Below are positions 21,001 through 24,000 of a stretch of DNA of 64,000 nucleotides, piece after piece. A program made the position numbers. The stretch lies in the NCBI RefSeq assembly GCF_030013595.1, contig NZ_CP122768.1; one strand, written 5' to 3'. How positions within the stretch are numbered: the first letter of the stretch is position 1; each line of letters begins with the position of its first letter. Origin of the DNA: Escherichia coli (GTDB lineage Bacteria > Pseudomonadota > Gammaproteobacteria > Enterobacterales > Enterobacteriaceae).

Positions 21001-24000
21001 AACGTGTATAGAAATGTGTATAGAATCTATTTTAGAACTCGAGAATGTGCCTTTATTACTGGTCTTGTTGCTTGTTGTATTGTTCCCTTCGCCCGCTCCA
21101 ATTTATCTTCACCTCATCAACCTGTCATTTTTGTTGTATCTGATTTTCTATATTATCTTAATTCAATCGCTTCAGACTTTTCGCAATCGCCGAAATACTT
21201 CCCCATTTTGTTGTAAATAAAAAGCGTTTACGCAATGCAATCCTTTTGTAACAACCCAGGTAAAATACCTTATTTTCAAGTTGTTAAATAAGTGGTTATC
21301 TACGCTTTTAACAAACGATTGATGGAATATTTTATGAAAGGGAAATCTGCATTAACGCTTCTGCTTGCTGGTATATTTTCGTGCTGCACATGCCAGGCGA
21401 CATGGGCAGAAGTGACGAGTGACTCCGTATTTAACATTCTTAATTCCAGGGGGGAAGCAATAGATAAAAGTTATTTATCGTTAAATCCAGATAAGTATCC
21501 TAATTATCGTCTTCTGATTCACTCAGCCAAATTACAAAATGAAATAAAGAGCCACTATACCAAAGACGAAATTCAAGGATTGTTTACATTAACAGAAAAC
21601 ACACGAAAGTTAGCGTTGACGGAGAAACCCTGGGGAACGTTTATTCTTGCTTCTACTTTCGAAGATGACAAAACAGCGACAGAAACCCACTATGATGCTG
21701 TCTGGCTGAGGGATAGTTTATGGGGCTATATGGCATTAGTATCAGATCAGGAAAATAGGGTAGCTGCAAAAAAGATTCTGCTCACCCTGTGGGATTATAT
21801 GTCTACGCCCGACCAGATTAAGCGGATGCAGGATGTCATTAGCAACCCAAAACGACTGGATGGAATTCCCGGGCAAATGAATGCTGTGCATATCCGATTT
21901 GACAGCAACTCCCCCGTGATGGCAGATGTGCAGGAAGAAGGCAAGCCGCAGCTGTGGAACCATAAACAAAATGATGCTTTAGGTCTTTATCTTGATCTCC
22001 TTATACAAGCCATCGACACTGGTACTATTAACGCTGAAGACTGGGAAAAAGGTGACCGATTAAAATCGATTGCGCTGTTGGTTGCTTATCTGGATAAATC
22101 CAATTTCTATATTATGGAAGATTCTGGAGCGTGGGAAGAAGATGCCCGATTAAACACATCTTCCGTTGCACTGGTGACCTCGGGACTGGAACGTTTGTCG
22201 AACTTACTCTCGAAGAAAGACTCTGTTTTTATTTCTGATTTACTACGCGAAGCTAAAGCCAATGAACTGGATGAAACTTTTTCAACAACGAGGTTGAACC
22301 ATCTCATAGATAAAGGGTATGAAAGAATAACGCTACAGCTTGATTTAGGGGGAGAATCCCCTGGTTATCTGGAAAAAGATAAACATTACAGAGAAGCTGA
22401 TGCGGCCTTACTTAATGTTATTTATCCTGCAAATCTTTCAAAGATAAACACCAGAAGAAAAGAGCAAGTTCTAAAAATAGTTAAAAAACTAGCAGGTCCG
22501 TATGGTATAAAAAGATACGAGAAGGATAATTATCAGTCGGCAAATTTTTGGTTCAATGATATTAAAACTGATACTGATGAAAATTCACATGCGAAAAGAG
22601 AAATGAGCTTCATTCCATCAACAGAAGCAGAATGGTTTTTTGACTCATGGTATGCAAAATCAGCAGCAATTGTTTATAAAGAATCAAGAAAAGAAGAGTA
22701 TTTGAATGACTCAGTGCAATTTATGAATAGATCATTGGCCCAAATAACAGGCGAGAATATGATTGGTGCAAATGGCAGGAGCGTACCAGAAATGGCACTT
22801 CCCGAAAGCTATAACTATATCCACAAGTCGGGAACTTTGCATGAAGCGCCAAGCCCTATCATTCCGCTAAATTGGTCGAAAGCTTCAATGACTCTCATGT
22901 TGAAAGAGATGTCCAACCTTATCAATGATGAGGGAATTAAATAGTTTTCATAATGAGGCGGTCCTGGATTAAAAGGACCGCTCAAAGAGAAATCGTAAGG
23001 GAGGTAAAAGTGATCAATAAATTACTGTTAGCTTACCTGATAGGTCTGGTTGTAACATCGACCTTAATATTTATCTTCTCGGAAGAAAAAGTAACATATC
23101 GGTTGTTTGCTGCAGTAATTACAGGGTTGACCTGGCCGCTTAGCCTCATTCCATCCATCATAAGTCTCATAATTCGTAAATCCGACTAACAAGAAATTTA
23201 TATGAACGATTAAGAAAAATAGTGGATTTGCCCCTATATTTCCAGACATCTGTTATCACTTAACCCATTACAGGCCCGCTGCCGCAGATATTCCCGTGGC
23301 GAGCGATAACCCAGCGCACTATGCGGATGCCATTCGTTATAATGCTCGAACGCCTCTGCAAGGTTCTTTGCTGCCGTTAACCCGTCTGGTTTGGGCATGA
23401 TACTGATGTAGTCACGCTTTATCGTTTTCACGAAGCTCTCTGCTATTCCGTTACTCTCCGGACTCCGCACCGCCGTGTTCTTCGGTTCAAGTCCCAACAT
23501 CCGGGCGAACTGGCGTGTTTCATTAGCCCGGTAGCATGAACCATTATCCGTCAGCCACTCCACTGGAGACGACGGAAGATCGTTGCCGAAGCGGCGTTCC
23601 ACCGCTCCCAGCATGACGTCCTGTACTGTTTCACTGTTGAAGCCGCCGGTAGTCACCGCCCAGTGCAGTGCCTCACGATCACAGCAGTCCAGCGCGAACG
23701 TGACACGCAGTCTCTCTCCGTTATCACAGCAGAACTCGAACCCGTCAGAGCACCATCGCTGATTGCTTTCTTTCACGGCCACTCTGCCTGTATGTGCCCG
23801 TTTCGATGGCGGTACAGCAGGTTTTCGCTCAAGCAACAGCGCATTCTGGCGCATGATCCGGTAAACACGTTTGGCATTGATCGCAGGCATACCATCAAGT
23901 TCTGCCTGTCTGCGAAGCAGCGCCCATACCCGACGATAACCATACGTGGGCAGCTCTCCGATAACATGGTGTATACGGAGAAGCACATCCGTATCATCAG

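What the first reader, a model, noticed from the sequence alone, without database searches (positions are those of the whole stretch)
21334..22944. Secreted GH15-like protein between the island and the T3SS cluster
The 536-aa product has a signal peptide and resembles glucoamylase-type (alpha/alpha)6 barrel glycoside hydrolases. The family call is from memory and weak. Its position at the ETT2 edge next to IS2 suggests it is part of the accessory region rather than core metabolism.
Basis: inference. Interest (0 to 1): 0.3.

Follow-up and report, generated by a model that had tools for sequence, protein, structure and literature searches.

The report
Known ETT2-edge GH15-like gene pkgA/ygeQ
The ORF is an intact copy of pkgA (ygeQ), the already named glucoamylase-like gene at the glyU end of the E. 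coli ETT2 type III secretion island. It most likely encodes a Sec-exported alpha-glucosidase, so the call is correct but ordinary, and its function has never been tested.

Summary
Window 21334-22944 (+) is an intact 536-aa ORF with a Sec-type N-terminus. The weak GH15 call is now supported:
- Pfam PF00723 scores 26.5 bits, above its cut-off of 22.
- The GH15 acid motif (W267-E268-E269) and the sugar-binding residues are invariant. The likely base, E491, is kept in 72 of 73 relatives.

The gene is not new. It is pkgA/ygeQ (ECs3736-37, EC042_3075), which PGAP names "glycoside hydrolase family 15 protein". Pallen (2003) proposed it as an ETT2 effector.

It sits in its native position, 233 bp past the attR of a 14-kb integrase element inserted at glyU. 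It is followed by a GhoT/OrtT-like gene, an incidental IS2, and eivF-eivG.

Among 5426 complete E. coli genomes, all 980 with the secretin gene eivG also carry pkgA. A further 1988 keep full-length pkgA DNA without eivG. None is on a plasmid.

Close homologues also lie beside or near SPI-1-type T3SS genes in E. albertii, Y. enterocolitica and two unnamed contigs, and all of them have Sec signals.

Best reading: an exported inverting alpha-glucosidase co-inherited with the island, not an injected effector. Already known; low interest.

The parts
21334..22944 (+). pkgA/ygeQ CDS: 536-aa GH15-like protein, intact
   Evidence: PGAP 'glycoside hydrolase family 15 protein'
21334..21408 (+). Codons 1-25: Sec-type signal peptide. 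Predicted SPase I site after A25. C17 at 21382-21384 is a possible lipobox Cys.
   Evidence: sequence features only, no predictor was run
21691..21714 (+). Y120...W124-x-R126-D127, equivalent to A. niger glucoamylase Y48, W52, R54, D55 (subsite -1)
   Evidence: hhalign; conservation
22132..22140 (+). W267-E268-E269, the GH15 'WEE' motif. E268 is the predicted general acid (A. niger E179).
   Evidence: invariant in 73/73 sequences
22513..22533 (+). R394-Y395-x-x-D398-x-Y400, equivalent to A. niger R305-Y306..D309.Y311
   Evidence: R394, Y395 and D398 invariant in 73/73
22804..22806 (+). E491 (LPESYN), the predicted general base, equivalent to A. niger E400. This assignment is inferred.
   Evidence: 72/73 conserved. 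It sits at the start of the beta-hairpin before the last barrel helix. The local hhalign placed Q470 opposite E400 instead, so the mapping is not settled.
22954..22984 (+). Stable stem-loop just after the pkgA stop codon, with no U-tract
   Evidence: MFE -19.7 kcal/mol, z -3.4
23010..23189 (+). GhoT/OrtT-family small membrane protein gene (59 aa, GTG start, SD GGGAGG). It is the conserved downstream partner of pkgA.
23223..24553 (-). IS2 insertion with 5-bp target duplication AATAG (23218-23222 and 24554-24558). Incidental to pkgA.
21083..21101 (+). attR: a 19-nt copy of the glyU 3' end that closes the 14,057-bp integrase element (attL at 7026-7044). pkgA starts 233 bp downstream, the same spacing as in island-free genomes.
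24871..27320 (+). eivF (AraC/InvF-like regulator) and eivG (T3SS secretin), the first ETT2 T3SS genes next to pkgA

Best explanation
The ORF is an intact allele of pkgA (ygeQ), the terminal gene of the ETT2 island at glyU. It encodes a single-domain (alpha/alpha)6-barrel protein from a divergent branch of glycoside hydrolase family 15. This branch is the closest bacterial relative of the GH15-like domains of phosphorylase kinase alpha and beta.

Shown:
- The fold.
- Pfam membership.
- An invariant acid motif (E268 in WEE).
- Invariant sugar-binding residues: Y120, W124, R126, D127, W208, R394, Y395.
- A Sec-type N-terminus.
- Purifying selection.

Inferred:
- After Sec export and signal-peptide cleavage (or lipidation at C17), the enzyme acts in the periplasm or at the cell envelope.
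- It is an inverting exo-alpha-glucosidase, with E268 as general acid and E491 as general base.
- It releases glucose from alpha-glucosides such as maltodextrins or glycogen fragments, isomalto-oligosaccharides or trehalose.

It is inherited together with SPI-1-family T3SS islands and with a small GhoT/OrtT-like membrane protein gene. It does not itself travel through the T3SS.
For: Identity:
- The match to E. coli genomes is 96-99.9%, annotated 'glycoside hydrolase family 15 protein' or ygeQ, at glyU next to eivF.
- The literature names it pkgA (PMC3977695, PMC2808357).

Family:
- PF00723 scores 26.5 bits against a cut-off of 22. 57 of 73 relatives hit PF00723.
- AlphaFold pLDDT is 90.6.
- A sequence search of the PDB finds only PhK alpha and beta.

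Catalytic residues:
- hhalign to A. niger glucoamylase (its sequence verified as 3eqa) aligns Y120/W124/R126/D127 with Y48/W52/R54/D55. It aligns W267-E268-E269 with W178-E179-E180.
- R394-Y395 aligns with R305-Y306.
- These residues are invariant or nearly so, and E491 is kept in 72 of 73.

Export:
- N-terminal features fit a Sec signal.
- Gram-negative homologues carry SPase I or lipobox signals. Clostridiales and Bifidobacterium homologues have none.

Selection:
- dN/dS is 0.235 against the common E. coli allele and 0.078 against E. albertii.
- None of the 26 amino-acid differences falls on an invariant column.

Independence from a working T3SS:
- 2968 genomes hold full-length pkgA DNA, but only 980 hold eivG.
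- Relatives occur in bacteria whose loci show no T3SS genes.
Against: - No enzymatic or localisation data exist for any member of this subfamily.
- The Pfam score is only just above threshold and covers HMM positions 14-309, not the region of the catalytic base.
- The base assignment (E491) rests on conservation and topology. One local profile alignment put the less conserved Q470 opposite the glucoamylase base.
- The substrate is unknown, and gene neighbourhoods outside Enterobacterales give no clue.
- Repeated linkage to T3SS clusters hints at a T3SS-related role that a simple nutritional glucosidase does not explain.
- pkgA is truncated in K-12 and frameshifted in O157, and within-species dN/dS is relaxed, so it is dispensable in many lineages.
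- The signal peptide was judged by eye, not with SignalP.
Confidence: 0.6

Rival explanations
1. PkgA is an ETT2 type III effector that is injected into host cells, where it acts on glycogen or mimics phosphorylase kinase alpha/beta. This is Pallen's 2003 proposal, repeated in later reviews.
For: - It is encoded at the end of ETT2, with ETT2-like low GC.
- It is proposed as an effector in the literature.
- Its closest solved relatives are the eukaryotic PhK alpha and beta subunits.
- Homologues lie beside or within 10 kb of SPI-1-type T3SS genes in E. albertii, Y. enterocolitica (Ysa) and contigs L012 and L014. A hilA-like regulator lies near the L013 homologue.
Against: - The N-terminus is a classical hydrophobic Sec signal, not a T3SS signal. 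The T3SS-linked homologues P0003, P0007 and P0024 also have Sec signals.
- No chaperone gene is adjacent. The neighbour is a small membrane peptide gene.
- 1988 genomes keep full-length pkgA DNA but have lost the secretin gene.
- Homologues exist in Commensalibacter, Bifidobacterium, termite-gut MAGs and Bdellovibrionales with no T3SS genes nearby.
Confidence: 0.12
2. PkgA is a periplasmic accessory of the T3SS. It trims or remodels an alpha-linked envelope glycan to allow needle-complex assembly or function, much as the lytic transglycosylase IagB does for peptidoglycan. It may act together with the GhoT/OrtT-like membrane peptide.
For: - The enzyme is Sec-exported and repeatedly linked to SPI-1-type clusters in different gene orders.
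- The pkgA plus ghoT-like pair is conserved in Escherichia, Yersinia and L014.
- In L012 and L014 it lies close to hilA-like and iagB-like genes.
Against: - No T3SS is known to need a GH15 enzyme. To my knowledge Salmonella SPI-1 has none; no Salmonella homologue was listed.
- pkgA persists where the T3SS is deleted.
- The linkage could be inherited from a single ancestral island.
- No candidate alpha-glucan substrate in the envelope is known.
Confidence: 0.1
3. PkgA is a non-catalytic carbohydrate-binding or regulatory protein, as the GH15-like domains of phosphorylase kinase alpha and beta are thought to be.
For: It is closer in sequence to PhK alpha/beta than to active GH15 enzymes. Its scores against GH15 profiles are very weak.
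Against: Both candidate catalytic Glu residues and the whole set of subsite -1 residues are invariant or nearly so across 73 diverse relatives. PhK alpha and beta replace the second Glu of WEE with Arg (alignments). Strict conservation of catalytic residues is not expected in a binding-only protein.
Confidence: 0.08
4. The gene is a functionless passenger of a decaying island. It is intact in this strain only by chance.
For: ETT2 shows widespread mutational attrition. pkgA is truncated in K-12 and B strains and frameshifted in O157. Within-E. coli dN/dS of 0.235 is relaxed for E. coli.
Against: - dN/dS is well below 1, and is 0.078 against E. albertii.
- No substitution touches an invariant site.
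- pkgA is the best-retained piece of the island: 2968 genomes against 980 for eivG.
- The family is conserved at 40-60% identity across phyla.
Confidence: 0.1

Closest known systems
E. coli pkgA / ygeQ (ECs3736-ECs3737 in O157 Sakai, EC042_3075 in EAEC 042; ygeQ remnant in K-12)
   Same: It is the same gene at the same locus (glyU - pkgA - ydcX/ghoT-like - eivF). Nucleotide identity is 96-99.9% and protein identity is 95% to the main E. coli cluster.
   Different: - This is a rare allele: only 5 of 5426 genomes match at 99% or more.
- It is intact, whereas K-12 is truncated and O157 is frameshifted.
- It is separated from glyU by a 14-kb integrase element and from eivF by IS2.
GH15-like N-terminal domains of phosphorylase kinase alpha and beta subunits (PDB 8jfk)
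   Different: PhK subunits are eukaryotic cytosolic regulatory proteins of about 1100-1200 aa with further domains. Their WEE motif is WER. PkgA is a 536-aa single domain with a Sec signal and a full set of catalytic residues.
Characterised GH15 enzymes: A. niger glucoamylase (3eqa), Kribbella flavida isomaltose glucohydrolase (5z3a), bacterial glucoamylase (1lf6), glucodextranase (1ulv), dextran dextrinase (9ju0)
   Different: - Identity is only 13-16%, and no hit appears by sequence search of the PDB.
- PkgA lacks the N-terminal beta-sandwich domain of bacterial glucoamylases, glucodextranases and trehalases, and has no starch-binding module.
- It carries insertions at about residues 298-317 and 408-433, and an N-terminal extension of about 80 residues.
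- Its substrate is unknown.
Periplasmic T3SS-locus accessory enzymes such as IagB/IpgF (lytic transglycosylases)
   Same: Both are Sec-exported glycan-active enzymes encoded within or beside SPI-1-family T3SS clusters.
   Different: The fold and chemistry differ: SLT acts on beta-1,4 peptidoglycan, whereas GH15 acts on alpha-glucosides. No role in T3SS assembly has been shown for PkgA.

Membership tests
Glycoside hydrolase family 15 (Pfam PF00723 / CAZy GH15) | Score against the family profile at or above the curated threshold | tested here: met
   PF00723 scores 26.5 bits against a gathering score of 22, E 3.9e-6, residues 92-415 on HMM positions 14-309. 57 of 73 subfamily members also hit it. 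The margin is small.
Glycoside hydrolase family 15 (Pfam PF00723 / CAZy GH15) | (alpha/alpha)6-barrel catalytic domain superposable on GH15 structures | tested here: met
Glycoside hydrolase family 15 (Pfam PF00723 / CAZy GH15) | General acid Glu in the W-E-E motif (A. niger E179) | tested here: met
   W267-E268-E269 aligns to W178-E179-E180 and is invariant in 73/73.
Glycoside hydrolase family 15 (Pfam PF00723 / CAZy GH15) | General base Glu (A. niger E400) | tested here: inconclusive
   E491 (LPESYN) is conserved in 72/73. It sits at the start of the hairpin before the last helix, as E400 does. The only profile alignment that reached this region placed Q470 opposite E400.
Glycoside hydrolase family 15 (Pfam PF00723 / CAZy GH15) | Subsite -1 residues (Y48, W52, R54, D55, W120, R305, Y306) | tested here: met
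   Y120, W124, R126, D127, W208, R394 and Y395 align to them and are invariant or at least 90% conserved.
Glycoside hydrolase family 15 (Pfam PF00723 / CAZy GH15) | Inverting hydrolysis of alpha-glucosidic bonds from the non-reducing end | not testable with these tools
   This needs enzyme assays. No experimental report was found.
Glycoside hydrolase family 15 (Pfam PF00723 / CAZy GH15) | Listing in CAZy or a dbCAN assignment | not testable with these tools
   No CAZy or dbCAN tool was available. PGAP names the protein 'glycoside hydrolase family 15 protein'.
Bacterial/archaeal glucoamylase-glucodextranase-trehalase architecture | N-terminal beta-sandwich domain before the catalytic barrel; match to TIGR01577-type models | tested here: not met
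   The barrel is preceded by only about 85 mature residues of mixed helix and strand. TIGR01577 scores 15.3 bits against a cut-off of 820.7.
Type III secretion effector | N-terminal T3SS signal with no cleavable Sec signal peptide | tested here: not met
   The N-terminus has a positively charged n-region, a 15-residue hydrophobic core and a T-W-A cleavage motif. T3SS-linked homologues also have Sec signals. This is a sequence-feature judgement only.
Type III secretion effector | Adjacent dedicated chaperone gene | tested here: not met
   The downstream gene is a GhoT/OrtT-family membrane peptide (PF10753). Upstream lies the attR/glyU intergenic region.
Type III secretion effector | T3SS-dependent secretion or translocation | not testable with these tools
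   This needs experiments.
ETT2 genomic island | Located between glyU and the eiv genes, with island-like low GC | tested here: met
   Gene order is shown. GC is 40.1% against 49-50% for the flanks and 35.5% for the rest of ETT2.
ETT2 genomic island | Co-occurrence with ETT2 genes across genomes, and no occurrence elsewhere | tested here: met
   All 980 eivG-positive genomes have pkgA adjacent. pkgA is never on a plasmid and is at a median of one place per genome. It also persists in 1988 eivG-negative genomes.

The most novel reading that the evidence does not exclude
PkgA and the small GhoT/OrtT-like membrane protein form a conserved, Sec-exported accessory module of SPI-1-family T3SS islands (ETT2, Ysa and ETT2-like clusters on unnamed enterobacterial contigs). 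The module would have a real T3SS-linked role, such as envelope alpha-glycan remodelling or release of a host-glycogen- or trehalose-degrading enzyme during host contact. The same subfamily may be the bacterial source of the GH15-like domains of phosphorylase kinase alpha and beta.
Probability: 0.2. Interest if true: 0.55.

Novelty: already known. Interest (0 to 1): 0.22.

Why it matters
As a finding it adds little. The gene is named, annotated as GH15 and listed as part of ETT2.

What remains open is its function. It is the only enzyme-like, non-apparatus gene at this end of ETT2, and it was proposed as an effector 20 years ago without any test.

Three points from this analysis argue for an exported enzyme rather than an injected one:
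- Sec signals are present in all the T3SS-linked homologues examined.
- pkgA is retained in twice as many T3SS-less genomes (1988) as T3SS-bearing ones (980).
- It is paired with a GhoT/OrtT-like gene in several genera.

The repeated linkage to SPI-1-type clusters still suggests that the association is not an accident.

An active bacterial enzyme this close to PhK alpha/beta could also help explain what the cryptic GH15-like domains of phosphorylase kinase bind.

Tried and rejected
- **Longer GTG start at 21292 (550 aa).** Rejected. PGAP and all close homologues use the ATG at 21334, and the extension would bury the signal peptide.
- **pkgA as cargo of the 14-kb integrase element.** Rejected. 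attR (21083-21101) lies upstream of the gene, and island-free genomes have the same glyU-to-pkgA spacing.
- **IS2 as evidence of mobility of pkgA.** Rejected. IS2 has its own 5-bp target duplication and is absent from the closest genome.
- **Window from a non-coli Escherichia because pkgA is only 96.5% identical to most E. coli.** Rejected. The core flank is 98.2% identical to O157 and 99.93% to E. coli HCP5S3_I2, so the allele is simply rare.
- **Mapping the catalytic base by profile alignment.** Three attempts failed: full-length hhalign against A. niger glucoamylase, hhalign against a 20-sequence fungal glucoamylase profile, and hmmsearch. All reached only the N-terminal half or gave an offset C-terminal alignment. 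A simple pairwise alignment was uninformative.
- **Profile search of PDB sequences at E up to 10.** It found no classical GH15.
- **Reading Pallen 2003 and Ren 2004.** Neither paper is held.
- **Literature searches** for ygeQ, pkgA, locus tags, and GH15 with phosphorylase kinase found no functional study.
- **PADLOC.** No defence-system match for pkgA, the ghoT-like gene or five of the element's ORFs.
- **Simple promoter and terminator scan.** Nothing above background near pkgA.
- **PLSDB protein search.** No genuine plasmid carries pkgA. The E. coli hits are chromosome-sized records.
- **GTDB genome scan.** It returned 29 loci but missed E. coli, E. albertii and Yersinia. The reason is unknown; their representative genomes may lack an intact copy. 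It therefore could not quantify the T3SS linkage within Enterobacterales.
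Full report
**1. The observation**

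The ORF listing gives a single long frame, 21292..22944 (+). PGAP annotates the same 1611-bp CDS in other E. coli genomes, and the frame has no internal stop.

The N-terminus is MKGKSALTLLLAGIFSCCTCQATWA|EV.
- Two lysines form the n-region.
- A hydrophobic core spans residues 5-20, with 11-residue Kyte-Doolittle means up to 2.26.
- T-W-A satisfies the -3/-1 rule for signal peptidase I.
- AlphaFold gives residues 1-4 and 15-23 pLDDT below 50.
- C17 (I-F-S-C) also fits a loose lipobox, as does V-L-A-C in E. albertii. The nearest other homologues have no Cys there. SPase I cleavage is therefore more likely, but a lipoprotein is not excluded.
- No signal-peptide predictor was available, so this is a judgement from sequence features.

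**2. Where it sits**

- The only tRNA in the window is glyU, tRNA-Gly(CCC), at 6970-7043.
- A 19-nt direct repeat of its 3' end (7026-7044 and 21083-21101) brackets a 14,057-bp element. The element carries a tyrosine integrase, an AntA-like protein, a D5-type primase-helicase and a ProQ/FinO protein.
- The ORF starts 233 bp after attR. That is the same spacing from glyU as in island-free genomes, so the ORF is not cargo of that element.
- Downstream come a stable hairpin and a 59-aa GhoT/OrtT-family gene with its own Shine-Dalgarno sequence.
- Next is IS2 at 23223-24553 with target duplication AATAG.
- Then come eivF (InvF-like) and eivG (secretin).
- The order glyU - GH15 gene - GhoT/OrtT-like gene - eivF - eivG is the standard one in E. 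coli O157 and in E. albertii.
- GC is 40.1% for the ORF, 35.5% for the rest of ETT2 and 49-50% for the core flanks.

**3. What it is called**

Megablast against 5426 complete E. coli genomes hits a CDS named "glycoside hydrolase family 15 protein". Where the gene is disrupted, the names are "ygeQ: protein YgeQ" plus a hypothetical protein.

The ETT2 review PMC3977695 lists ECs3736/pkgA, "phosphorylase kinase and glucoamylase", as the last gene of the island. It notes that pkgA was speculated to be an ETT2 effector acting on host glycogen metabolism. The EAEC 042 genome paper PMC2808357 says the same of EC042_3075 and cites Pallen 2003. I could not read Pallen 2003 or Ren 2004.

No functional study turned up. 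The gene is known; its function is not.

**4. Family test**

Sequence profiles:
- Pfam PF00723 scores 26.5 bits against a gathering score of 22.
- NCBIfam gives only a negligible TIGR01577 match.

Structure:
- An AlphaFold model built on a 42-sequence alignment is confident (pLDDT 90.6, pTM 0.91).
- By sequence alone, only PhK alpha and beta are found in the PDB.

The protein therefore belongs to a divergent GH15 branch that is nearer to the PhK domains than to classical glucoamylases. It lacks the N-terminal beta-sandwich domain of bacterial GH15 enzymes.

**5. Catalytic residues**

It proved 100% identical to PDB 3eqa over 442 residues, so the standard numbering applies.

Profile alignments give these equivalences:
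- Y120 = Y48
- W124 = W52
- R126 = R54
- D127 = D55
- W208 = W120
- W267-E268-E269 = W178-E179-E180

E179 is the established general acid. hmmsearch aligns R394-Y395-x-x-D398-x-Y400 with R305-Y306-x-x-D309-x-Y311. In a 73-sequence alignment reaching relatives of about 22-25% identity, W208, W267, E268, E269, R394, Y395 and D398 are invariant. W124, R126 and D127 are each kept in 72 of 73.

The general base is less certain.
- E491 (LPESYN) is conserved in 72 of 73 sequences.
- It sits at the start of a beta-hairpin just before the last barrel helix. From my knowledge of the structure, this is where E400 (SEQYD) sits in glucoamylase.
- A local hhalign of the C-terminal parts instead put Q470 opposite E400. 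Q470 is kept in only 56 of 73.

I take E491 as the base. This is an inference.

**6. Distribution in E. coli**

| Feature, out of 5426 complete genomes | Genomes |
|---|---|
| pkgA, at least 80% of its length | 2968 |
| pkgA, any remnant | 3978 |
| eivG (secretin), at least 80% of its length | 980 |
| pkgA and eivG found together in one place | 980 |

- Every eivG-positive genome has pkgA next to it.
- By subtraction, 1988 genomes keep full-length pkgA DNA after losing the secretin gene, and about 1450 have neither.
- No copy is on a plasmid, and the median is one place per genome.
- K-12 retains the first 1137 nt. O157 has a frameshift.

pkgA is nonetheless the most persistent piece of a decaying island.

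**7. This allele**

- Only 5 genomes match at 99% or more. The pig isolate HCP5S3_I2 is 99.9% identical here and 99.93% identical in the core flank. It lacks both the integrase element and the IS2.
- Against the common allele there are 29 synonymous and 26 non-synonymous differences (dN/dS 0.235). All lie in roughly the first 1400 nt.
- None falls on an invariant column.
- Against E. albertii, dN/dS is 0.078, although dS is saturated.
- E. albertii pkgA is 76.5% identical in nucleotides and its other ETT2 genes 78.8%, against about 87% for the core flank. pkgA has therefore shared the island's history.

**8. Relatives elsewhere**

The subfamily is small but widespread. There are 843 hits at E of 0.001 or better, and 217 at 1e-30 or better, among 1.84 billion cluster representatives.

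Named members include:
- E. albertii (77% identity), Y. enterocolitica (60%) and Commensalibacter (54%);
- termite-gut Elusimicrobiota, Planctomycetota, Synergistaceae and Clostridiales;
- Bifidobacterium, Bdellovibrionales and Oligoflexia, Endozoicomonas and Francisella.

Gram-negative members carry SPase I or lipobox signals. The Clostridiales and Bifidobacterium members have none. Neighbourhoods in Commensalibacter and Bifidobacterium say little about function, apart from a GH32 gene next to the former.

**9. Linkage to T3SS genes**

Among the close, mostly enterobacterial homologues the context is consistent.

| Locus | pkgA homologue | T3SS context |
|---|---|---|
| E. albertii (L006, L007) | P0002, 77% | Same gene order as E. 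coli ETT2 |
| Y. enterocolitica (L003, L044) | P0005, 60% | About 9.8 kb from the yspD end of the Ysa T3SS (spaOPQRS - sicA-like - yspBCD), across a methylmalonyl-CoA operon |
| L012, unnamed, with SopA/SopB plasmid-type partition genes | P0003, 65% | Next to a prgH homologue of an ETT2-like prgHIJK-orgAB block with hilA-like and iagB-like genes |
| L014, unnamed | P0024, 48% | Near hilA-like and iagB-like genes and prgHIJK-orgAB |
| L013, unnamed | P0009, 53% | A hilA/ygeH-like regulator 7.4 kb away |

- A GhoT/OrtT-family gene lies directly downstream of the pkgA homologue in E. albertii, in L014 and in Yersinia, where it is interrupted by a stop codon.
- None of the 29 loci from other phyla has T3SS or ghoT-like genes within 10 kb.
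- The genome scan missed Escherichia and Yersinia themselves. I could not do a formal, phylogeny-aware test, and the linkage may descend from one ancestral island.

**10. Interpretation**

The best-supported model is an active, Sec-exported inverting alpha-glucosidase, co-inherited with SPI-1-family T3SS islands but not secreted through them. Confidence is about 0.6 for the mechanism and about 0.95 for the identity.

Against the effector hypothesis:
- Sec signals are present in every T3SS-linked homologue examined.
- No chaperone gene is adjacent.
- pkgA is retained after the T3SS is lost.
- Homologues occur in bacteria with no T3SS genes nearby.

The effector hypothesis is kept alive only by the repeated linkage and the PhK resemblance.

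Other readings remain minor possibilities: a periplasmic T3SS-accessory role, a non-catalytic binding role and a functionless passenger.

**11. Verdict**

The feature is the already described pkgA/ygeQ, so novelty is "already known" and interest is low.

The points I did not find stated in the literature I could search are:
- the Sec signals;
- the conserved pairing with a GhoT/OrtT-like gene;
- the recurrence next to differently arranged SPI-1-type clusters.

Together they give a modest, testable lead.

Noticed in passing
window 7026-21101: A 14,057-bp integrative element sits at glyU, bounded by a 19-nt direct repeat (7026-7044 and 21083-21101). It carries a tyrosine integrase (7169-8422), an AntA-like protein (9851-10651), a D5-type primase-helicase (12636-14384), a ProQ/FinO-family protein (15575-16117) and several ORFs with no family. 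The gene content resembles a phage satellite (P4-like), but this was not tested. There are no PADLOC hits, and it is absent from the otherwise 99.9%-identical genome HCP5S3_I2.
   Followed up: partly
window 23223-24553: IS2 is inserted 33 bp after the ghoT-like stop codon and 318 bp upstream of eivF, with target duplication AATAG. It is absent from HCP5S3_I2. It could alter expression of eivF and the eiv operon.
   Followed up: partly
window 23010-23189; L006 11687-11860; L003 11696-11845; L014 5502-5669: A 55-59-aa GhoT/OrtT-family membrane peptide gene is the conserved downstream partner of pkgA homologues in E. coli, E. albertii, Y. enterocolitica (interrupted by a stop codon) and an unnamed contig. 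It is separated from pkgA by a stable hairpin at window 22954-22984 and has its own SD. The reason for the pairing is unknown.
   Followed up: partly
window 21334-22944: The pkgA allele is rare (99% or more identical in only 5 of 5426 genomes), whereas the adjacent eivG allele is common (392 genomes at 99% or more). All 55 differences from the common allele lie in about the first 1400 nt and none in the last 210 nt or so. This suggests a recombination mosaic.
   Followed up: partly
L012 1-16659: An unnamed contig combines F-type SopA/SopB partition genes, an ETT2-like prgHIJK-orgAB block with hilA-like, iagB-like and LuxR-type regulator genes, a pkgA homologue and a SopD-domain/pentapeptide-repeat protein. 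It may be a plasmid-borne ETT2-like T3SS. No PLSDB plasmid matches more than the partition genes.
   Followed up: partly
L044 1-19664 (Y. enterocolitica GCA_046763825.1): The Ysa T3SS (spaOPQRS - sicA-like - yspB/C/D) is followed by a methylmalonyl-CoA mutase/MeaB/ECH/CoA-transferase operon and a sigma-54 activator. Then come the ghoT-like remnant and the pkgA homologue.
   Followed up: no
L006 against window 1-6965 and 21456-32394: E. albertii ETT2, including pkgA, is 76-79% identical in nucleotides to the window, while the flanking core genes are 84-87% identical. The island is more diverged than the chromosome around it.
   Followed up: no
window 9421-9486 and 15106-15299: Short repeats lie inside the integrase element. 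One is a 33-nt tandem pair (9421-9486). The other is three copies of an 18-nt unit spaced 83-85 nt apart (15107-15292). They may be iteron-like or regulatory sites.
   Followed up: no
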